A stretch of DNA of 64,000 nt from a virus: the IMG/VR virus record IMGVR_UViG_3300050014_000899; one strand, 5' to 3'. Shown here piece after piece: positions 17,344 through 56,169 of the stretch. Numbering within the stretch: the stretch's first letter is position 1; every line of letters begins with the position of its first letter. The notes beneath the pieces are model-generated. The model did no database searches. It saw only the letters and a program-made list of their open reading frames with translations, and was not told where the DNA came from. Position numbers and translations under genes: made by a program.

Positions 17344-17745
17344 CTAATTTTTTTTGCTGTCTTCATATATTTGTTCGAGTTTTTCAATTGCTTTTTTCCA
17401 TTGCTTTCCTGGCTTCATTTCATGAGTAAAAGTTGCCAATCCAACCCATGCATTCCATTCTTTTGGAATTTTTTCCTCAAGTATCTTTACGAGGTAATAA
17501 GCAGTTGGAAAACCATAGACCATTCCACATCCACGAGCTCCACAAAGAACGTTGCAGCTTCTTCTCTTAACGATACAGGCATCCATATTTCCAAGCCACT
17601 TAACAATGTACATGCGAGCTCCCATATCATAGCCAGAGATACCTATCTCAGTTTTTTGAAGTTGTTCATCAAAGCTTAAACGGTAAAGAACCCTTTTGAT
17701 TAAAGGATCTTCAACTTTCATAGGATCTTTTATTTCGTCGTACAT
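17344..17745 (-). CDS. Hypothetical protein
   Basis: TAATG coupling to the ligase stop codon. Confidence 0.5.
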   Translation of the reverse strand: MYDEIKDPMKVEDPLIKRVLYRLSFDEQLQKTEIGISGYDMGARMYIVKWLGNMDACIVKRRSCNVLCGARGCGMVYGFPTAYYLVKILEEKIPKEWNAWVGLATFTHEMKPGKQWKKAIEKLEQIYEDSKKN

Positions 17746-18914
17746 TATTTCCAGGTTTCAATGATTTGTTTAGCTTGTTTCAAATGATAAGTCATAGCCA
17801 ATACCTGTTCTTTTTTTCTTGTGGTGTATTCTTCTGGTTTTTCGATTTTAGTCCTAAAAAGACCAAAAAATGGTTCACGGTGTTTATCAGTAGCAAATTT
17901 ACCCCAATGCCCAGTATAGAATGAAGAGTTATATTCGTCCATCAATTTATCAACGCAAGAGTCAATATGAGCCATAAAATTATTGGTAGATTTAACTACT
18001 TTATCCACAAATAAGAATGCATCGGCGTCATCAACAGGATGCAACATCGACATAAGATCATCCAAAGCTTCGTTTAAATAATTGCAAATAACATAATCTT
18101 CTCTGAAAACATTTTCGGTTCTCAAACCATGCATTTTGAAATACCACTGAGTTTTAAGTTTGACCAACTGGCCATCTTCAAGTTTAAAAACCCAACCTTC
18201 TTTGGAGTCAATAGTTTTTGCAAGATCAAGATAATATTCCCAATCTCCGCCATAAGATTTTATCTGCATGATCGACTGAGGAATTCTATAAACATCCATT
18301 TCAGATGCCGTATGATATTCACCGGTGATATTATCACGTATTCCTATAAAACGAATCTGCGGGCAAGTATACTGTAAAACAACTCTATTGTCACGGGACA
18401 CATATTCAAACAATGGGGTATAGCCATCATTCAATAAGTTTTTAACCCATTCAACATGTTCTTCATTTTCATATAGAAGCTGATATGCAGCAGCAGACTG
18501 ATCGCTTGAAAAAGAACCAATGGTCTTAGAAAAAAGTTTTCCATCTGGAAGCATCATAAATGCTACCAAAGAACCATCTGCTTTTTCAGAAATATCAAGG
18601 ATTTTTTTGTCTTTGATTTTATCGTATTGAGTTGTCTCAACCTGATTAAGATTAAAGAATTTTGGAAGCATAAAAAATCTCTTCCATAGAGAACCATCTT
18701 TATTAAACACGAAGGTAGTTCCCCTCATATCAAAAGCTTTAACTTCCGGACGGTTTTTAAGCGGGATATCAAAATCATTATACCCACAAATAAAATAATT
18801 GAAGGTAACTAATTTATAGCCATCCCTCATGAAATCACTTGAATAGAAATGGAAGTTATTATACTTCTCAGCTATTTCTTGAGCGTCCTTATATGTGAGT
18901 AGATATTTTGACAT
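17745..18914 (-). CDS. rnlA: T4 Rnl1-family RNA ligase
   Basis: MRG..F, KFFNLNQ, motif I EKADGSL, TPLFEY..NRVV, EGWV, VKLK; start moved to the ATG after the promoter. Confidence 0.88.
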   Translation of the reverse strand: MSKYLLTYKDAQEIAEKYNNFHFYSSDFMRDGYKLVTFNYFICGYNDFDIPLKNRPEVKAFDMRGTTFVFNKDGSLWKRFFMLPKFFNLNQVETTQYDKIKDKKILDISEKADGSLVAFMMLPDGKLFSKTIGSFSSDQSAAAYQLLYENEEHVEWVKNLLNDGYTPLFEYVSRDNRVVLQYTCPQIRFIGIRDNITGEYHTASEMDVYRIPQSIMQIKSYGGDWEYYLDLAKTIDSKEGWVFKLEDGQLVKLKTQWYFKMHGLRTENVFREDYVICNYLNEALDDLMSMLHPVDDADAFLFVDKVVKSTNNFMAHIDSCVDKLMDEYNSSFYTGHWGKFATDKHREPFFGLFRTKIEKPEEYTTRKKEQVLAMTYHLKQAKQIIETWK

Positions 18915-18953
18915 TCGACAAATGTACAACTAATTTTCCAAATAAAAAAATAA

Positions 18954-32457: not shown

Positions 32458-33567
32458 ATGACTTATACAATAGAAGATCTTAGATCACAGGGCCTTATAA
32501 TAATGGAATCCAGAATGGGTTCTCATGCTTATGGTACGTCCACTCCAGCGTCAGATGTGGACTTGCGGGGCGTATTCGTCCAGCCATTGGATGATGTTCT
32601 TAAATATGGTTTTGTCGATCAAATATCCGACAAAACCAATGACGTAACTTTTTATGAACTTGGAAGATTTGTTGACCTGGTTATAGGAAACAACCCGAAT
32701 ATAATAGAGATGCTTGCCGTTCCGGATGATTGTATGATACTTAAACATCCTCAATTCAAAAGAATCGAATCTCTTAAGCCTCAGATACTTACTAAGAAAG
32801 TTCGCTGGACTTTTGCAGGTTATGCAGTTGATCAGATACAGAAAGCAAGAGGGTACAATAAGAAGATGAACTGGGAAGAAGCTCAGATGACTCGTAAGAC
32901 TGTTCTGGATTTCTGCTATGTTCTTAAGGACGGAGGAAGCATGCCATTCAAACTTTGGATGGAATATGAACCCCTGATGAACACTCGTATACTCAAGAAC
33001 TTTGCAACTCAGAAAAATTTTGGTCTTGCAGCTATAGATCATGGGCACGATCTTTATGCAATGTATTACAATCCTGCTCCAGAATGGGGGATAGTTTCTG
33101 ATGAAGAAGTTGCTAACGAAGTTCAGCTTTGGTCAATACCCAAAGGTCTGGATCATATAGGTTATCTTTATTTCAACCAGGAAGGTTATACTTCTCATTG
33201 CAAGAAATATAAAGAATATCAAACCTGGCTTAAGGAACGTAACGAGAACAGATTCAAAATGAACAAGGAGCATGGTAAGAACTATGACTCCAAAAACATG
33301 ATGCACACTTATCGTTTACTTCTCATGGCTCAGGAACTTGCTGAGGGGAAACTATTGGTTCGAAGAACTGATGATCAGATAGACAAACTCATGAAAATAA
33401 GAAGAGGTGAATATGAGTATGAGGATCTTCTTGCTGAAGCTGAAGGCATGATAACCGGCCTCGATGCTCTTTATGCAGCTTCAACACTTCCCGAACATGT
33501 CAATAAAGAAGTGGTTTTGAATACATTGCTCGATATGAGAAGACATTTTTATTTCTCAGAAGCATAA
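32458..33567 (+). CDS. Pol-beta superfamily nucleotidyltransferase (YcgL/RlaP-like)
   Basis: GSHAYGTSTPASDVDLRGVF, NNPNIIEML, YDSKNMMH..RLL, IRRGE. Confidence 0.85.
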   Translation: MTYTIEDLRSQGLIIMESRMGSHAYGTSTPASDVDLRGVFVQPLDDVLKYGFVDQISDKTNDVTFYELGRFVDLVIGNNPNIIEMLAVPDDCMILKHPQFKRIESLKPQILTKKVRWTFAGYAVDQIQKARGYNKKMNWEEAQMTRKTVLDFCYVLKDGGSMPFKLWMEYEPLMNTRILKNFATQKNFGLAAIDHGHDLYAMYYNPAPEWGIVSDEEVANEVQLWSIPKGLDHIGYLYFNQEGYTSHCKKYKEYQTWLKERNENRFKMNKEHGKNYDSKNMMHTYRLLLMAQELAEGKLLVRRTDDQIDKLMKIRRGEYEYEDLLAEAEGMITGLDALYAASTLPEHVNKEVVLNTLLDMRRHFYFSEA

Positions 33568-36412: not shown

Positions 36413-37597
36413 ATGACGAATGCTATTTTTGATTTAAGTAATATGTTTTTCCGGAGTTTGTTTATCGTAGGAGGTTATGGGTCGAAGCAGTATACTTTTC
36501 ACAGCCAGTCCGAATTGGATCAGCTAATGAGAAAGGTTGCGACAGATGTTTCTCAGGTTATCAGACAAGTAAATCCTTCTCGTATTCTTTTCGCTATGGA
36601 TTCAAAATCCTGGAGAAAAGGAATTTCTATTGACGAGAACGAAGGTTATAAAGGTCAGAGAACAAAATCTGAAAATATTAACTGGGAAGGGGTATTTAAG
36701 ATTATGAAAGAATTTTCTGATATTTTGCAAACTAATGGATTCATCGTATCCCAGTTTGAGAAAGCTGAAGCAGATGATCTTATTGCATTATGGAGAGATG
36801 AATTCCTTTACAAACAAAATCAGCATGTTATTATAGTATCAGCGGATGAAGACGTACGCCAATTGGTTGCATACAATTCTAATTGTCCAAAACCAGTAGT
36901 TTGTACAGTTTTCAACCCATTTACTCAGGGGAAAAATGCTTCTAAAAAGCTATTCGTTCCTAGAGAATTTTTTGATTGGATAAAAGACGAAGATAATGGA
37001 GATATTTTTGACCGTAGTATTGATGTGGATAAGGAAGATTTTCAAAGGATCTCGAACGACGGAAAAGTAAAAGTTGAAGAAGTATTTGGTCCGGAAATTG
37101 CTCTGAAGAAAATCTTCTGTGGCGATGATGGGGATAATGTTCCAGCAATTTATACTTGGATTGTTAAAGATAAAAACGGAGAAGATAAGGAAGTTCGAAT
37201 AACCGATTCAAAATATAAAAAAATCATCGAACATATTGGTGCTAAAGAACCTAAAGATCTGGTTGGAAAATCAAAAGAAATTTATGACGAAATAGCTCTT
37301 ATATGCGGTCATCAGCCATCTTTTAATCCCGAAGATCGTTTAATGAGACAGATGAAATTAGTCCTTCTTTTGGATTCTAATATATTTCCTATAGAAATAA
37401 CTTCTGCATTTAAAAATAGAGTTACAGAAGAACTTTCTAAACCCCAAATTCATCCTCAAAGTTGGAATATGCTTTCAATACTTGAAGGAACTAGATATGT
37501 AACTCCGGGAGGAAAATATAAACCAAATACAGGTAAGGAAGCTTCTATATTTGGGGATACAGATAAAATGATAGCTAAATCTAAATCATTATTCTAA
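36413..37597 (+). CDS. T4 RNase H-like 5'-3' exonuclease (FEN/PIN fold)
   Basis: D.SN, SWRK, YKGQR, EADDLI, SADED, GDDGDNVP. Confidence 0.85.
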   Translation: MTNAIFDLSNMFFRSLFIVGGYGSKQYTFHSQSELDQLMRKVATDVSQVIRQVNPSRILFAMDSKSWRKGISIDENEGYKGQRTKSENINWEGVFKIMKEFSDILQTNGFIVSQFEKAEADDLIALWRDEFLYKQNQHVIIVSADEDVRQLVAYNSNCPKPVVCTVFNPFTQGKNASKKLFVPREFFDWIKDEDNGDIFDRSIDVDKEDFQRISNDGKVKVEEVFGPEIALKKIFCGDDGDNVPAIYTWIVKDKNGEDKEVRITDSKYKKIIEHIGAKEPKDLVGKSKEIYDEIALICGHQPSFNPEDRLMRQMKLVLLLDSNIFPIEITSAFKNRVTEELSKPQIHPQSWNMLSILEGTRYVTPGGKYKPNTGKEASIFGDTDKMIAKSKSLF

Positions 37598-51288: not shown

Positions 51289-51371
51289 GCCCTCATGATG
51301 GAAATGGGTAGACATACGGGACTCAAAATCCCGTGCTTTTTAGCGTGTGGGCTCGAATCCCACTGAGGGCA
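51289..51371 (+). tRNA. tRNA-Leu(CAA)
   Basis: gccctca/tgagggc, cggga-ctCAAaa-tcccg. Confidence 0.92.
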
Positions 51372-51520
51372 CAATTTTTTAACGATTTTTTAACAAAAAA
51401 CATTTTAGTATTTGGAAAACTTTCTGTATATTTGATCTATTAAAACAAACAAACGTTCTTTAAGAATTCATTTATAGGATAAGCGGATTAGTACGATTAT
51501 TAACCAAAAAATCCTAAAAA

Positions 51521-51736
51521 ATGAAAGCATTCTTATTTTTCGTAACTTCTGATGACACTTGGGAACTTTGCGAATCTATTTATACGGTAACTGCTGAATC
51601 GAAAGAAGAAGCGGAATCGATATTTAAGCTTCGAGAAGGAGGATATTTTTCATCGGAAAAAAGGATCACGAATATCCAGGAAATAGATTTATCTGTAAAA
51701 GGACAAGTCCAAATCCAGGAATATATGATCGAATAG
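51521..51736 (+). CDS. Hypothetical protein
   Basis: V.AESKEEA motif. Confidence 0.5.
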   Translation: MKAFLFFVTSDDTWELCESIYTVTAESKEEAESIFKLREGGYFSSEKRITNIQEIDLSVKGQVQIQEYMIE

Positions 51737-52033
51737 GTTCTTTGATTAAGCCGTTCGTATTGTAGAGTTGTTTAGGAGCCATGACGGTTACCAGGCTGAT
51801 AACATCTCTTCACTTTATTTTTATGCTGGTGGAAAACTAAGCAGGAGAGTCAACTGAGCTGCGGGATATTAACATACTAGGAAGTAAATCCAGGAGCTCT
51901 TTTAAAATCTAATCTGGGAGGGATGAATGCTTATACCTGATGCAACGACTGGCCGGTCACTGCGTTATAGGTCCAAAAATGGTTCAAGTCCATACGCCGG
52001 TGCTATTATCAAATGTTCTTTGAAAAAATTATA

Positions 52034-52333
52034 ATCCGTAGTAAGTTAAAGAGTTACTTCGACTAACGGCCCAAAGGTAGTACCGACACCGCGAGGTGCC
52101 CACGAATACTCAGAAGGGTATCGTTTCACAGATCTCTCGTAGATGCTGGAGACGGGTAACGATGGAACATATAGAAGTTTTTTGTATAAGTCAGGAGGAC
52201 TAATAATCCGTATACACTGTGAAAATGAAAAACAACAGGCCTGGGTTTAAAACTGATAGCAATATTAGTGTGCCTATAAAGTTCCAAGCGACCGGCCACC
52301 CAAGATAATCACTCTAAACAAGGATTCTCGGAT
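52034..52333 (+). ncRNA. Y-RNA-like scaffold copy 4 with about 245-nt structured cargo
   Basis: atccg-TAGTAAG-ttaaagag-TTACTTCG..cactctaaac-aaggATTCT-cggat. Confidence 0.65.
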
Positions 52334-52341
52334 AACATTAC

Positions 52342-52416
52342 AATTCGTGGTAAGACAAAGGGTTACTTCGCCATCTATGTATAGCCAAAACACACTCTAG
52401 TCAAATTTCCCGGATT
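52342..52416 (+). ncRNA. Y-RNA-like scaffold copy 5
   Basis: aattcg-TGGTAA-gacaaaggg-TTACTTCG..cactctagtc-aaaTTTCC-cggatt. Confidence 0.65.
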
Positions 52417-52432
52417 CAATTCTAAAAGAAAC

Positions 52433-52510
52433 CCATGGTGAGACAAAGAGTTACTTCGTACAATTCCTAAAAAACTGTAATAAAAGATCATCTCTAGTCA
52501 ATTTCCTGGT
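52433..52510 (+). ncRNA. Y-RNA-like scaffold copy 6
   Basis: cca-TGGTGA-gacaaagag-TTACTTCG..ctctagtc-aaTTTCC-tgg. Confidence 0.65.
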
Positions 52511-52533
52511 AATTCTTTTCTTTAAAAAATACG

Positions 52534-52630
52534 CGGTTTCCTGCCTGTTAGTACGCAAGCTTTGGCAGCTCTGATATAATATTAGCTATAAAAATCAGAT
52601 GAGGGGTGTGAATCCCCGGAACCGAGACCA
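52534..52630 (+). ncRNA. tRNA-like RNA ending ACCA
   Basis: cggtttc/ggaaccg, gggg-tgtgaat-cccc T arm. Confidence 0.45.
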
Positions 52631-52968
52631 TACGGCAGCCTCCGATGAGAGAGACATTCGGCCCCAGTTCAATATTGGCCATAAAAACTGGGAGATGGGT
52701 TAAAATCCCAGGGTCGCCAGACCACAAGGAAGATCACGCAGCTTCGTACTGCAAGCCGGAAGTTTACTTCCAGATCTTCCCTCTGAGCACGGTGCCTGTG
52801 TCAAGCACAGGATCTAGTTATAGACAAATAGCCGCTTTTTAGCCTTCTCGATAGTGTGCGTAACAAATCGGGTCCAGCGTGATAAGCTCTACGGACAGGC
52901 TTAAGGTTAGCTTCAATCTTCTAAGATTTGCAGTCATGAGCATAAAAACGGTTCGAAAGGTTTTTGGG

Positions 52969-53002
52969 AGAGGTTCTTAAATAAATTAGGACCTCTTTTT
53001 TT
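52969..53002 (+). terminator. Terminator closing the RNA island transcript
   Basis: agaggttct/aggacctct plus T tract. Confidence 0.75.
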
Positions 53003-53363
53003 GTGGTCCACAACAAAGAGCATTAAAAATGCTCTGTCGTTATAGGTGATTTCTAAACAAATTTATTTTATTGCTGAGGTAGATGCGATGCATATCGAAG
53101 GCCCTACTTTGGATGAGTATTTTGATGGTTTACAAAAACATTTATCAGAATGGCAAAGGAATATCGGGAACAATCCTCGGAAGTAAAGAAGGTCATTTAT
53201 GACTTAGCCTGCGAGTTTGGTTTTGAACATTATTCAACCCCAGAAGAGATCGATTATAAGTTCTGGGAAGACATTCCAGCCGAGTGGATTGCCATTGCAC
53301 TTGCTCAAAAACTCGTCGCTAAGTCCAGTTCTTAAGATTTTTTGGATTTATATATACTTAAAT

Positions 53364-53419
53364 TTAACAATATTTTAACAAAAGCATAAGATTTTCTACA
53401 GAACTTTATCGTATATTTG
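53364..53419 (+). promoter_or_regulatory. Promoter for Y-RNA-like copy 7 and the Ro60 region
   Basis: ttaac at 53364 and 53375, TATATTTG at 53412. Confidence 0.75.
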
Positions 53420-53454
53420 CTCTATAGAAATCAAACAAACATTTTAAAGATTTC

Positions 53455-53514
53455 GTTGTAGTAAGAGAAGGGTTACTTCGTTTCAGAAAAAACACTCTTT
53501 TCAAGTTTCTCAGC
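53455..53514 (+). ncRNA. Y-RNA-like scaffold copy 7 (minimal)
   Basis: gttg-TAGTAA-gagaaggg-TTACTTCG..cactcttttc-aagTTTCT-cagc. Confidence 0.7.
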
Positions 53515-53551
53515 TAAATTTGCATTTATTTTTTATACTATTTAAATATGC

Positions 53552-53587
53552 AAAAACCCGAGAGACTTATGTCGCCCGGGTTTTTTT
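53552..53587 (+). terminator. Terminator after Y-RNA-like copy 7
   Basis: aaaacccg..cgggtttt plus T tract. Confidence 0.7.
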
Positions 53588-53614
53588 ATGAATTTAATTT
53601 TAAAACTAAATAAG

Positions 53615-53839
53615 ATGGCTAAAGCAACTGAAAAAACAACAACTGATGAACTCGTTTACAGTCCAGTTGAAGACAATGGTAAGAATATTGCCAACAGTCC
53701 TATTTGGAAGAACGCATGGCACAGGGATGAAATAACTCCCGAAGCTCTTAATAAATTTCATAATTGGTGGGAATATGCCATTAGATTCGACGGGTTAAAG
53801 CCACAACAGCTTTTAAAAGTTAAAAAGGTTCTTTTATAA
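53615..53839 (+). CDS. Hypothetical protein
   Basis: ORF upstream of the Ro60 region. Confidence 0.5.
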   Translation: MAKATEKTTTDELVYSPVEDNGKNIANSPIWKNAWHRDEITPEALNKFHNWWEYAIRFDGLKPQQLLKVKKVLL

Positions 53840-54465: not shown

Positions 54466-56169
54466 ATGTCAAAGTACAACACAAAAATTGAGCCGGTAGT
54501 TCAGAAGACTACTACTCTACAGGGAGGCCCAGGGCTTACTCAGAGACCTGAGGCAGAATTAATTTCTATTCTTGCAACCGGAATGGGAAATAACTTTTAC
54601 GAAAAGGAAACCGAACGTGAAAAGCGTTTTAAGGAAGTACTTGGTAAGGTAGCTAAGAAGAACCCGACATTTGCCGCAAAGGCTCTTATTTATGCTCGTA
54701 CCGTATTTGGTCAGAGATCAGTAACTCACTTCGGTGCAGTTGAACTTATCCCTTTCCTTCAGGGTAACGAACTTGGTAAGAGATTCTTCTCCAAGAGAGA
54801 TAAGAAGGCCGAACGTGGTGGAATCATATGGAGAATTGATGACATGGCTGAAATTCTTGCAGCTTATATCGCTAAGAATGGCATCAAGCAGGAAGATAAG
54901 TGGACTCTTCCGAATTCAATTAAGAAGGGATTCAAGGATGCTCTCGAGCATGCAGACACTTATGAACTTGCAAAGTATCAGTTAAAGAACCGTGGTGTAT
55001 CACTTGTTGACATCGTCAACCTTGTTCACCCAGTTGAAACTCCTAAGAACGGTTTCATCTATGTAACTGAGGAAGCATACAAGAAGGCAGTTGCAGGAAC
55101 TAAGTTTGCAAACAAGGAATTTAACAAGAATGAAAAGGGAGAAGTTCAGGTTCCGGCCGTTCGTGCTCTTATTCTTGGAATTCTTAAGCAGTTCAACACA
55201 GTTGAAGATAAGAACACCGAGTCAGGAAAGGTTGTTGCAGAAAAGGTTAAGTCAGGTGAAATCACCAAGGAACAGGCTGCAACTGAGCTTAACGAAGCTA
55301 AGACCGAAAACTACAAGGAACTTATCGAGGAAAAGAAGATTGGATACCTTGCATTACTCCGTAACGTAAGGAACATTCTTAAGACAAATGATATGGATTT
55401 ACTTGACAAGGCTTGCGATTTACTTGTCGAAAAGGAATTCATCAGAAAGTCACTTGTATGGCCACACCAGATTGACCTTGCCCTTGAAGTTATGACACTT
55501 GAATTCAACGGAACACAGTTGAGGAAGGTTGCAACAGCACTCGACAAGGCATATGAACTTTCAATTCCTAACTTGGAGCATTTACTTCCGGAAGGAAGAA
55601 CTGCTATCGTATTCGATACATCAGGTTCGATGGATGGTGCAAACCGTATTCCAATTGATGCTAAGGATCCGAAGAAGACTATCAACAAGAAGCCAGCTGA
55701 AAAGGCTGCTCTTATTGCCGCTACACTTGCAAAGGGTGTTGGCGGAGATGTATATCATTTCGCATCAGGTTCTGAACAGATCACCGGCTGGAACCCAATC
55801 GATTCGATTAATACTCTTAAGCAGAAGTTCATGTCCTACAACGGACGTCAGGGTCACGGAACCGACTTCGGTGCATGCTTCAAGTTATTCGAAAGAATGA
55901 ATAAGCAGTATGACAGGGTTCTTATTATCTCCGATGAGCAGGACGGATACGGAAACGTTGAGTCTAACTACAAGGGATACTGCCAGAAGTTCGGAACCCC
56001 ATACGTATACATAATCAACGTAGTTGGTTATGCCCCAACCGCTCCGATAAAGAACGGCGACAGGGTCTTCAGACTATACGGTTACACGGCCGATATATAT
56101 GAAAAGATACCGAGATTGGAAATGAATGTTAATGAGGTCATCGACGCCATTAACAGGATCGAAATCTAA
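54466..56169 (+). CDS. rsr: Ro60/Rsr-like TROVE plus vWA RNA-binding protein
   Basis: FYE..R, YAR..GQRS, YELAKY, L.DIVNLVHP, YLALLRNVRNI, S.VWP, DTSGSM, GTDF, IISDEQ. Confidence 0.92.
   Translation: MSKYNTKIEPVVQKTTTLQGGPGLTQRPEAELISILATGMGNNFYEKETEREKRFKEVLGKVAKKNPTFAAKALIYARTVFGQRSVTHFGAVELIPFLQGNELGKRFFSKRDKKAERGGIIWRIDDMAEILAAYIAKNGIKQEDKWTLPNSIKKGFKDALEHADTYELAKYQLKNRGVSLVDIVNLVHPVETPKNGFIYVTEEAYKKAVAGTKFANKEFNKNEKGEVQVPAVRALILGILKQFNTVEDKNTESGKVVAEKVKSGEITKEQAATELNEAKTENYKELIEEKKIGYLALLRNVRNILKTNDMDLLDKACDLLVEKEFIRKSLVWPHQIDLALEVMTLEFNGTQLRKVATALDKAYELSIPNLEHLLPEGRTAIVFDTSGSMDGANRIPIDAKDPKKTINKKPAEKAALIAATLAKGVGGDVYHFASGSEQITGWNPIDSINTLKQKFMSYNGRQGHGTDFGACFKLFERMNKQYDRVLIISDEQDGYGNVESNYKGYCQKFGTPYVYIINVVGYAPTAPIKNGDRVFRLYGYTADIYEKIPRLEMNVNEVIDAINRIEI

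What the first reader, a model, noticed from the sequence alone, without database searches (positions are those of the whole stretch)
52034..52333. Copy 4 carries an unknown 245-nt multi-helix RNA domain
The GC-rich cargo has GNRA-capped hairpins (cacc-gcga-ggtg, ctgata-gcaa-tattag), long-range helices (tttcacag/ctgtgaaa, ggaac/gttcc) and no convincing ORF. It sits first in a tandem trio of copies 4-6. It could be a large effector-binding or catalytic module delivered by Ro60.
Basis: partly seen in the sequence, partly recalled or inferred. Interest (0 to 1): 0.7.

Follow-up and report, generated by a model that had tools for sequence, protein, structure and literature searches.

The report
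Phage Y RNA carrying 23S rRNA mimic
The 245-base insert in this phage small-RNA gene is a shrunken, rearranged copy of the part of ribosomal RNA that joins the two ribosome halves, mounted on the handle that binds the RNA-surveillance protein Ro60, so the phage probably uses a ribosome look-alike where known Ro60 partner RNAs use a tRNA look-alike.

Summary
Window 52034-52333 is a non-coding unit of the repeated Y-RNA-like scaffold, 2.1 kb upstream of a Ro60 (TROVE) gene in an uncultured peat phage.

Its cargo is not an unknown fold. It is a circularly permuted miniature of the 23S rRNA domain IV junction (helices 67, 68, 69 and 71), opened in the helix 69 loop, where the scaffold is attached.

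- **Sequence:** relatives share up to 23 consecutive bases with E. coli 23S 1912-1934, plus CACGAAUGG (1965-1973).
- **Architecture:** helix order, bulges and two G.U wobbles match the Rfam 23S structure.
- **Covariation:** in 8 distinct phage or metagenome copies, 22 pair columns are 98.8% paired and 18 carry compensatory double changes.
- **Other families:** Rfam gives no match, and there is no intron or ribozyme match.
- **Expression:** a sediment metatranscriptome holds a 94%-alike copy as an adapter-flanked insert of about 283 bases at depth 124. Neighbouring DNA is at 3.7 or lower.

The best reading is an rRNA look-alike adaptor or decoy on a Ro60 handle. Its partner is unknown; it could be the 30S interface or a 23S-specific factor.

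This scan has already noted helix-69 look-alikes on Y RNAs of other jumbo phages. I found no paper describing this. New here are the permuted H67-H71 architecture and the RNA-level evidence.

The parts
52034..52061 (+). Y-type scaffold, 5' arm. It holds the closing stem AUCCG, the GUAGUAAG bulged stem, AGAG, and the invariant UUACUUCG motif, which is the probable Ro60 contact.
   Evidence: The same arm occurs at 44182, 44437, 47110, 52038, 52347 and 53458, and in 18 Ro60-linked loci, always on the Ro60 strand. RNAalifold pairs it with the 3' arm.
52062..52065 (+). Linker ACUA, a remnant of the 3' half of the helix 69 loop. Relatives L001, L003 and L148 keep the full AACUAUA.
52066..52071 (+). 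Helix 69 3' strand (ACGGCC; 23S ACGGUC, 1919-1924).
   Evidence: It pairs with 52294-52299. There are 4-6 bp in all 8 copies, with compensatory changes; L150 reads GGUUGU/AUAAUC.
52072..52081 (+). Junction strand CAAAGGUAGU, equal to 23S 1925-1934 (CUAAGGUAGC). CYWAAGGUAGU is invariant in the family.
   Evidence: blastn against E. coli 23S: 23/23 identical in L001/L003 and 16/18 in the window. Rfam LSU consensus structure.
52082..52100 (+). Hairpin in the place of helix 71, capped by a GCGA tetraloop.
   Evidence: All 5 stem columns show compensatory changes.
52101..52106 (+). CACGAA, equal to 23S 1965-1970 (the junction strand after helix 71).
   Evidence: CACGAAUGG is identical in L148. L003 matches 17/20 over 1962-1981.
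52107..52119 (+). Extra small hairpin (UACUC-AGAA-GGGUA), present in 5 of 8 copies and absent from 23S.
52120..52125 (+). Helix 67 strand corresponding to 23S 1972-1975.
   Evidence: It pairs with 52158-52163. The helix covaries in all copies: GGUA/UACC, GGCA/UGCC, CGGUAA/UUACCG.
52126..52157 (+). Cap that closes helix 67 in place of the rest of the rRNA. It contains the invariant hairpin AUCU-CUCGU-AGAU.
   Evidence: The hairpin is invariant in 8 copies, apart from the middle loop base and one closing base in L148, and is not rRNA-like.
52158..52163 (+). Helix 67 strand corresponding to 23S 1830-1833.
52164..52285 (+). Helix 68 stand-in. The stem GGAAC/GUUCC encloses a 112-base insert with a block that is near-invariant in W, L081 and L080 (AGUCAGGAGGA..AAUAAUCCGUA) and a GCAA-capped hairpin.
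   Evidence: All 5 stem columns covary. In 6 of 8 copies the base of this helix repeats the 23S pattern: 3 bp, a 2-nt bulge, 2 bp, an A bulge, then a stem that starts with G.U. The window and L081 lack that base. The insert's substructure is only weakly resolved.
52286..52293 (+). Linker AAGCGACC. It replaces the helix 68 base strand A-NN-GRC of the other copies.
52294..52299 (+). Helix 69 5' strand (GGCCAC; 23S GGCCGU, 1906-1911).
52300..52333 (+). Y-type scaffold, 3' arm (..GAUAAUCACUCU..GGAUUCUCGGAU).
   Evidence: The cDNA contig of a relative ends at the equivalent of about 52335.
54466..56169 (+). Ro60 (TROVE) protein gene, the presumed partner of the scaffold.
   Evidence: Pfam TROVE E = 5e-8. 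PDB 9l5y/9kop 'TROVE domain-containing protein' E = 6e-20. 18 related phage loci.

Best explanation
Copy 4 is a phage Y-type RNA. Its two ends form the scaffold that is repeated seven times around a Ro60 gene. Its cargo is a circularly permuted miniature of the 23S rRNA domain IV junction.

Read from the scaffold, the cargo order is:
1. helix 69 3' strand;
2. the 1925-1934 strand;
3. a helix 71 stand-in;
4. CACGAA(U);
5. helix 67, closed by a foreign cap hairpin;
6. a helix 68 stand-in;
7. helix 69 5' strand.

The scaffold therefore sits where the helix 69 loop would be. This parallels YrlA, where the scaffold replaces the anticodon loop of a tRNA look-alike.

**Shown here:** the sequence and architecture match to 23S, conservation with compensatory changes, and accumulation of a close relative as a discrete abundant RNA.

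**Inferred:** Ro60 binds the scaffold, and the cargo acts as a look-alike of the subunit-interface face of the 50S subunit. It would then either tether Ro60 (with any exonuclease it recruits) to whatever recognises that face, or soak up that partner. Candidates are the 30S bridge surface (h44/h45/h24) or a 23S-specific enzyme or factor, such as those that modify 1835, 1911-1917 and 1962.
For: - **Context.** A Ro60 gene lies 2.1 kb downstream on the same strand. The same scaffold occurs seven times here and in the Ro60-linked loci of related phages. A sibling copy at 44437-44590 carries a permuted tRNA-like cargo, as YrlA does (Chen 2014, PMC4201824).
- **Match to 23S, sequence.** The only E. 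coli genome hits of relative L001 are the 23S genes, with 22-23 exact bases. The hit at 23S 1912/1915-1934 is the best or joint-best for 7 of the 8 copies and third for L150.
- **Match to 23S, architecture.** CACGAAUGG sits in the correct relative position. Helix order, the 3 bp / 2-nt bulge / 2 bp / A-bulge / G.U-first stem of helix 68, and the G.U second pair of helix 69 all match the Rfam LSU structure.
- **Covariation.** 22 pair columns are 98.8% paired, and 18 carry compensatory double changes. None of 2000 column shuffles reached either value. RNAalifold independently recovers the helix 68 base, the helix 71 stand-in and the scaffold stem.
- **Expression.** In RNA run X15, a 328-base contig at depth 124 reads adapter + 52053-52321 (+14) + adapter and is 94% alike. 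The next units are at depth 3.7 and 52660-53600 has none.
- **Linkage to Ro60.** The 323-kb phage contig that holds copy L080 also encodes Ro60.
- **Precedent.** A phage Ro60 binds nearby Y-like RNAs and host PNPase (PMC12135203).
Against: - No binding data exist for Ro60 or for any partner.
- The scaffold motif (UUACUUCG, often followed by AA) only partly matches the published GNCGAA(N)G / CGAA motif, and no Rfam family, Y-RNA families included, matched these units.
- Primary-sequence similarity to 23S is significant only for 1912-1934. It is modest for 1962-1981.
- The six 3'-side segments scored (helix 68 3' strand and helix 69 5' strand; the script stopped before L148 and L150) were no better than shuffles, so their assignment rests on topology and pairing.
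- The window's own copy and L081 lack the rRNA-like base of helix 68 and carry two mismatches within 1917-1934.
- My helix alignment was curated by hand to fit the model, and only 8 related sequences exist.
- The cDNA contig starts at 52053, which is 19 bases inside the predicted 5' end.
Confidence: 0.68

Rival explanations
1. It is a Ro60-independent decoy. The rRNA look-alike soaks up a host enzyme, toxin or defence nuclease that acts on the helix 67-71 region of 23S rRNA. The scaffold serves only as a stable clamp or processing signal.
For: The conserved rRNA-like strands are ones that carry or flank known 23S modifications; this rests on general knowledge of E. coli 23S and was not tested here. 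The RNA is very abundant in the one RNA library that holds it. tRNA-like siblings could be decoys too.
Against: The scaffold is specific to Ro60-encoding phages and lies beside the Ro60 gene in every long contig. The helix 70 loop, a known toxin target, is deleted from the copy.
Confidence: 0.15
2. It is a new ribozyme or ligand-sensing domain. Its likeness to 23S rRNA is convergent or incidental, and its function lies in the invariant cap hairpin and the GNRA loops.
For: The cap AUCU-CUNGU-AGAU is invariant and not rRNA-like. Several GNRA loops suggest tertiary packing. No known family matches.
Against: A 23-base identity plus matching helix order, bulges and wobble pairs is hard to obtain by chance. 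The RNA contig spans the whole cargo uncut. No ribozyme family matched.
Confidence: 0.07
3. It is a captured rRNA gene fragment, or a relic of a homing-endonuclease target site (the I-CeuI-type site at 23S 1912-1937), with no function as RNA.
For: The best-matching stretch coincides with a classic homing site; that is my own knowledge of I-CeuI. The region is full of GIY-YIG and HNH endonuclease genes.
Against: The order is circularly permuted and always sits inside the scaffold. The helices are kept by compensatory changes, not by sequence. It accumulates as a discrete RNA. The window's copy has diverged inside the would-be DNA target.
Confidence: 0.03

Closest known systems
YrlA-type bacterial and phage Y RNAs bound by Rsr/Ro60 (Chen et al. 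2014, PMC4201824; 10.1101/312249)
   Same: It is encoded beside a Ro60/TROVE gene. The 5' and 3' ends form a stem with a conserved 5'-strand motif containing CG(A)(A). The cargo is a circularly permuted look-alike of a translation RNA, with the scaffold replacing one hairpin loop. A sibling copy in this window carries the tRNA-like cargo.
   Different: The cargo copies the 23S rRNA helix 67-71 junction, not a tRNA. The unit is 300 nt. The scaffold motif is UUACUUCG rather than GNCGAA(N)G. No Rfam family, Y-RNA families included, matched these units.
Deinococcus radiodurans Yrn1 / RYPER, and the Thermus phage phiLo Ro60-Yrl1/2-PNPase complexes (PMC12135203)
   Same: The model is a Y RNA acting as a tether between Ro60 and a second partner. 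It provides a phage-encoded Ro60 precedent.
   Different: Those cargos are simple loops that bind PNPase. Here the cargo is a large folded rRNA copy, and the partner is unknown.
23S rRNA domain IV, helices 67-71 (Rfam RF02541 consensus; E. coli 1830-1975)
   Same: Up to 23 identical bases (1912-1934) plus CACGAAUGG. The helix order, bulges and G.U pairs are the same.
   Different: It is circularly permuted at the helix 69 loop. The helix 70 loop is deleted. The helix 71 loop and the distal part of helix 68 are replaced. Helix 67 is capped by a foreign hairpin. It is 240 nt standing alone in a phage, not part of an rRNA gene.
rRNA mimicry in ribosomal-protein leader RNAs (Meyer 2018, cited in PMC8058203)
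   Same: A non-ribosomal RNA copies an rRNA site in order to engage its binder.
   Different: Those are small cis-acting mRNA elements that copy a protein-binding site. This is a trans-acting RNA that copies a multi-helix junction.
Earlier notes of this scan on other jumbo phages (e1-5378725, e1-5378704, e1-5402321)
   Same: They describe Y-type RNAs beside phage Ro60 genes that carry helix 69 or other 23S look-alikes.
   Different: They are on different DNA; a sequence look-up with a 57-base piece of the L001 copy found no shared stretch. The permuted H67-H71 architecture and the RNA-level evidence were not described there.

Membership tests
Y RNA (YrlA-type, Ro60 partner) | Encoded next to a Ro60/TROVE gene | tested here: met
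   The TROVE gene is at 54466-56169 on the same strand. Units sit in the Ro60 loci of relatives.
Y RNA (YrlA-type, Ro60 partner) | 5' and 3' ends pair into a stem that carries the conserved 5'-strand motif GNCGAA(N)G / CGAA | tested here: inconclusive
   The stem is present and covaries. The motif here is an invariant UUACUUCG, followed by AA in many units but by AC in the window's copy 4 (PMC4201824; PMC12135203).
Y RNA (YrlA-type, Ro60 partner) | tRNA-like cargo (T arm, D arm, closed acceptor stem) | tested here: not met
   The cargo of copy 4 is 23S-like. The tRNA-like cargo is found in the sibling copy at 44437-44590.
Y RNA (YrlA-type, Ro60 partner) | Match to an Rfam Y-RNA covariance model | tested here: not met
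   No such hit at E <= 10 on 44170-44600, 51300-53700 or the L001 unit. I did not check separately which Y-RNA models the library holds.
Y RNA (YrlA-type, Ro60 partner) | Physical binding to Ro60 | not testable with these tools
   This needs RIP, EMSA or a structure.
23S rRNA domain IV (as a copy, not as an rRNA gene) | Sequence of the universally conserved 1912-1934 and 1965-1973 strands | tested here: met
   23/23 in L001/L003, 22/23 in L148 and 16/18 in the window. CACGAAUGG is exact in L148.
23S rRNA domain IV (as a copy, not as an rRNA gene) | Helices 67, 68, 69 and 71 with the rRNA's connectivity and irregularities | tested here: met
   Met after circular permutation at the helix 69 loop. 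The window and L081 lack the helix 68 base pattern.
23S rRNA domain IV (as a copy, not as an rRNA gene) | Part of a large-subunit rRNA gene | tested here: not met
   No LSU match in the window or on the unit. It is therefore a look-alike, not an rRNA gene.
Group I intron / known ribozymes | Match to the family model, or signs of cleavage or splicing | tested here: not met
   No Rfam hit. The RNA contig spans the cargo without a joint.

The most novel reading that the evidence does not exclude
The cargo is a stand-in for the 50S side of the central inter-subunit bridges: helix 69/71 to h44/h45, and helix 67/68 to h24/h23. It docks on free 30S subunits and places Ro60, attached where the tip of helix 69 would touch the decoding centre, next to the single-stranded 3' tail of 16S rRNA. 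The phage could then block subunit joining, mask the anti-Shine-Dalgarno sequence, or feed the 16S 3' end to an exonuclease. The conserved AGGAGGA at 52193-52199, shared by W, L081 and L080, would fit pairing with that tail.
Probability: 0.15. Interest if true: 0.92.

Novelty: new variant of a known kind. Interest (0 to 1): 0.78.

Why it matters
Known bacterial and phage Y RNAs carry simple loops or a tRNA look-alike, and what those cargos are for is still open.

A Y RNA that reproduces the multi-helix core of the ribosomal subunit interface, kept by selection and made in quantity, links phage Ro60 directly to the ribosome. It gives a concrete bait for finding the partner: 30S subunits, rRNA-modifying enzymes, assembly or rescue factors, or host toxins.

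It also shows that a large rRNA junction can be miniaturised to about 150 nt (copy L148) and probably still fold, which is useful for structural work. It adds to the evidence that huge phages interfere with host translation through RNA as well as through proteins.

Tried and rejected
**Known RNA families.** Rfam at gathering and at E <= 10 gave nothing on the unit: no intron, ribozyme or riboswitch, and no LSU hit even on L001.

**Folding energy.** The single-sequence fold is not better than shuffles.

**Database searches**
- Phage GenBank blastn of 51700-53100: no match.
- Pattern scan of 185,579 genomes: 6 hits, all chance matches in GC-rich coding DNA or a tRNA.
- Loose pattern scans of IMG/VR produced mostly chance hits and no members beyond five contigs.

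**Ideas from reading the sequence by eye, dropped**
- 5S rRNA loop E or helix III likeness: the hairpin there is variable.
- 11-nt tetraloop receptor (CCUAAG): the partner strand is wrong.
- Bulged-G motif: the key A is not conserved.
- FMN riboswitch (ACCGGCGG): no Rfam match.
- Group I R/S boxes.
- Kissing between the cap loop CUCGU and GCGAG: broken in L080 without compensation.

**Other rRNA likenesses**
- H66-like CGUAUAC..UGUGA and A-loop-like CUGGGUUUA in the helix 68 insert are short matches at chance level and in the wrong topology.
- The six 3'-side segments scored (the script stopped before L148 and L150) are not significantly 23S-like in sequence.
- Other large cargos and neighbouring structured stretches show no similarity to E. 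coli 16S, 23S or 5S.

**Not informative**
- Ro60 was not found on the short loci of L081, L147, L148 and L150; these are fragments.
- RNA run X21 held nothing.
- MAFFT misaligns the variable parts, so I did not build a covariance model.
- Promoter-like boxes before copies 4 and 5 are no more frequent than in shuffles.

Full report
**Setting**

The window is from an uncultured phage. It has tail-fibre genes, an Rnl1-type RNA ligase, a nucleotidyltransferase and an exonuclease. It also has 18 tRNA genes at 44-51.4 kb and homing-endonuclease genes between them. The DNA comes from peat metagenomes.

ORF 54466-56169 is a Ro60 homolog. Pfam TROVE scores E = 5e-8, and PDB 9l5y/9kop 'TROVE domain-containing protein' scores E = 6e-20 over residues 245-554. 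Eighteen related phage loci encode the same protein at 67-79% identity.

**The scaffold**

One scaffold is repeated at 44182, 44437, 47110, 52038, 52347, about 52437 and 53458, always on the + strand. It consists of:
- a covarying closing stem;
- GUAGUAAG opposite AAAUUUCUC;
- AGRG opposite CYCU;
- an invariant UUACUUCG.

The same scaffold fills the Ro60 loci of relatives, typically with one short unit 450-650 bases upstream of Ro60.

The unit at 44437-44590 carries a T arm, a closed acceptor stem and a D arm in permuted order. That is the YrlA layout (weak permuted-tRNA-like hit; Chen et al. 2014, PMC4201824).

The published Ro60 motif is GNCGAA(N)G (PMC4201824), or CGAA for a phage Ro60 (PMC12135203). 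Here UUCG is invariant and is often followed by AA. No Rfam family matches the units. I therefore call them Y-type RNAs by context and layout. Binding to Ro60 is inferred.

**The observation**

Copy 4 spans 52034-52333.
- Both GNRA hairpins and the ggaac/gttcc helix are present and covary in relatives.
- tttcacag/ctgtgaaa occurs only in the window and its near relative L081 and cannot be tested.
- No reading frame is shared among copies.
- Folding energy is at chance level (z = -0.52).

**Homologs**

Pattern scans found eight distinct copies, every one inside the same scaffold:
- the window;
- L081, close to the window;
- L080, on a 323-kb phage contig that also encodes Ro60 at 68% identity;
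- L001;
- L003 (= L004);
- L147, L148 and L150 (= L154), from metagenomes.

Unit length ranges from 185 nt (L148) to 308 nt (L080). The scan of one genome for each of 185,579 species gave only chance hits.

**What the cargo is**

After the scaffold, L001, L003 and L148 read AACUAUAACGGUCCUAAGGUAGU. I recognised this as 23S rRNA around helix 69 and then tested it.
- blastn of the L001 unit against 5,426 E. coli genomes hits only the 23S genes, a median of 7 places per genome, with 22-23 exact bases.
- Against one rrn locus, the hit at 23S 1912/1915-1934 is the best or joint-best for seven of the eight copies and third for L150. L001/L003 are 23/23 (E = 2e-5), L148 is 22/23, L147 is 19/20, and the window is 16/18.
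- CACGAAUGG (1965-1973) follows the next hairpin. L003 matches 17 of 20 over 1962-1981.

I took the consensus structure of this part of 23S from the Rfam LSU model aligned to E. coli. It reads: H67 CGCC/GGCG; H68 GCC-CG-GU-GCCGG ... CCGGU-AA-AC-GGC; H69 GGCCGU-AACUAUA-ACGGUC; then C-UAA-G GUAGC; H70/H71; UGCACGAAU.

The cargo reproduces this as a circle opened in the H69 loop:
1. H69 3' strand.
2. CYWAAGGUAGU.
3. A GCGA-capped hairpin where H71 sits. The H70 loop AAAUUCCUU is deleted.
4. CACGAA(U).
5. In five copies, a small extra hairpin.
6. The H67 strand.
7. A cap with the invariant hairpin AUCU-CUNGU-AGAU.
8. The other H67 strand, followed by 0-1 nt (U in 23S).
9. An H68 stand-in.
10. The H69 5' strand, then the scaffold.

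In six of the eight copies the base of the H68 stand-in repeats the rRNA's irregular pattern: 3 bp (GCC/GGC or GUC/GAC), a 2-nt bulge, 2 bp, a single A bulge on the other strand, then a stem whose first pair is G.U. The G.U second pair of H69 is also kept in 7 of 8 copies.

The window and L081 lack the H68 base pattern. They have an 8-nt linker instead, and they carry a 112-nt insert in H68.

**Structure support**

Across the H67, H68a/b/c, H69 and H71 stand-ins there are 22 pair columns. They are 98.8% paired, and 18 show compensatory double changes. Examples:
- H69: GGUUGU/AUAAUC in L150 against GGCCGU/ACGGUC in 23S.
- H67: GGUA/UACC, GGCA/UGCC and CGGUAA/UUACCG.

None of 2000 within-column shuffles reached the observed pairing or covariation. 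RNAalifold on three copies independently returned the scaffold stem, the whole H68 base and the H71 stand-in.

Caveats:
- The alignment was curated by me to the model.
- There are only eight related sequences.
- The six 3'-side strands scored (the script stopped before L148 and L150) are not significantly 23S-like in sequence, so their assignment rests on position and pairing.

**Expression**

A sediment metatranscriptome (X15) contains a 328-base contig at depth 124. It reads Illumina adapter, then 52053-52321 plus 14 more bases ending ..CUCGGAC (the end of the scaffold's 3' arm), then adapter, and is 94% alike. A second, more diverged copy is present at depth 10.

The following units are at depth 3.7, and 52660-53600 is not covered. 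This fits a discrete, abundant RNA of a close relative, not contaminating DNA. Adapter orientation would place the RNA on the + strand if the library is of the usual stranded kind. The left boundary at 52053, which is 19 bases inside the predicted 5' end, is unexplained; it could be an RT stop, processing or trimming.

**How it probably works**

The parallel with YrlA is close. In both, the scaffold replaces one hairpin loop of a folded copy of a translation RNA: the anticodon loop there, the helix 69 loop here.

By established knowledge of the ribosome (not tested here), helices 67-71 form the centre of the 50S interface. They contribute to bridges B2a, B2b, B2c, B3 and B7a, which contact 16S h44, h45, h24 and h23. 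They also carry a cluster of modifications: m2G1835, pseudouridines 1911/1915/1917 and m5C1962.

The likeliest role is therefore an rRNA look-alike adaptor. Ro60 would sit on the scaffold while the cargo engages something that normally reads this face of the 50S subunit. Candidates are the 30S subunit or a 23S-specific enzyme or factor. The effect would be either tethering of Ro60 (with a recruited exonuclease, as in RYPER and the phiLo complexes, PMC12135203) or sequestration of that partner. Which partner it is remains open.

**Rivals**

The rivals are a Ro60-independent decoy, a new ribozyme or aptamer with an incidental likeness, and a relic of an rRNA fragment or homing site. The last two fit poorly with the permuted but precise architecture, the compensatory changes and the intact abundant RNA.

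**Novelty**

Full-text searches found no paper on Y RNAs that copy rRNA.

After I had reached this reading, a look-up showed that this scan had already noted helix-69 or other 23S look-alikes on Y-type RNAs of other jumbo phages: e1-5378725, e1-5378704, e1-5402321 and e1-5402310. Those lie on unrelated DNA and do not describe the permuted H67-H71 layout.

I class it as a new variant of a known kind: a Y RNA with a new class of cargo.

Noticed in passing
window 51833-51998 (within the ORF-poor stretch 51740-52033): In RNA run X15, a 230-base contig at depth 108 reads 51895-51998, then 34 foreign bases, then 51833-51923. Its two ends overlap by 29 bases (window 51895-51923). That is the signature of a roughly 200-nt circular RNA or of a tandem repeat in a relative. 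The stretch ends in a T-arm-like GGUUCAAGUCC and has no Rfam or rRNA match. The phage encodes an RNA ligase.
   Followed up: partly
window 52534-52980; also L003:3400-3800, L147 and L150 downstream of their copy-4 units: Further GC-rich non-coding stretches follow the Y units. They share a motif AGAUG.GGGUGAAAAUCCCC and have no Rfam or rRNA match. RNA run X15 covers 52529-52620 only thinly.
   Followed up: partly
L002:18695-18925 and L015:19161-19440: Y-type units in related phages carry a different large cargo of 230-280 nt, which shares ..CAAGGGUUUG.GG.CUUCGG.CU... It has no similarity to E. coli 16S, 23S or 5S. It may be another look-alike of something else.
   Followed up: partly
window 52054-52059 against 52075-52081: The invariant scaffold motif UUACUU is complementary to the rRNA-like AAGGUAG of the cargo. 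RNAalifold prefers this pairing to helix 69. It could be an alternative fold that competes with Ro60 binding, but both strands are invariant, so it cannot be tested by covariation.
   Followed up: no
window 52193-52199: A perfect Shine-Dalgarno-like AGGAGGA lies inside a roughly 40-nt block that is near-invariant in W, L081 and L080. No start codon follows at the right spacing. L001 has AAGGAGGU in a different place and L003 has none.
   Followed up: no
window 47110-47225: A scaffold variant (UUACAUCG) carries an unpermuted tRNA-like cargo, which ARAGORN calls tRNA-Phe at 47123-47208. One phage thus mounts permuted tRNA, unpermuted tRNA and rRNA look-alikes on one handle.
   Followed up: no
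window 52006-52035 and 52315-52344: TATAAT and TACAAT boxes with -35-like hexamers end right at the first bases of copies 4 and 5. A conserved ..ACGUUCUUUAAAA.. lies about 25 nt upstream of many units. The count of such boxes is no higher than in shuffles.
   Followed up: no
window 17745-18929 (-), 32458-33567 (+), 36413-37597 (+): An RNA-handling kit lies near the Ro60 locus: an Rnl1-type RNA ligase, a nucleotidyltransferase (possibly CCA-adding) and an exonuclease.
   Followed up: no
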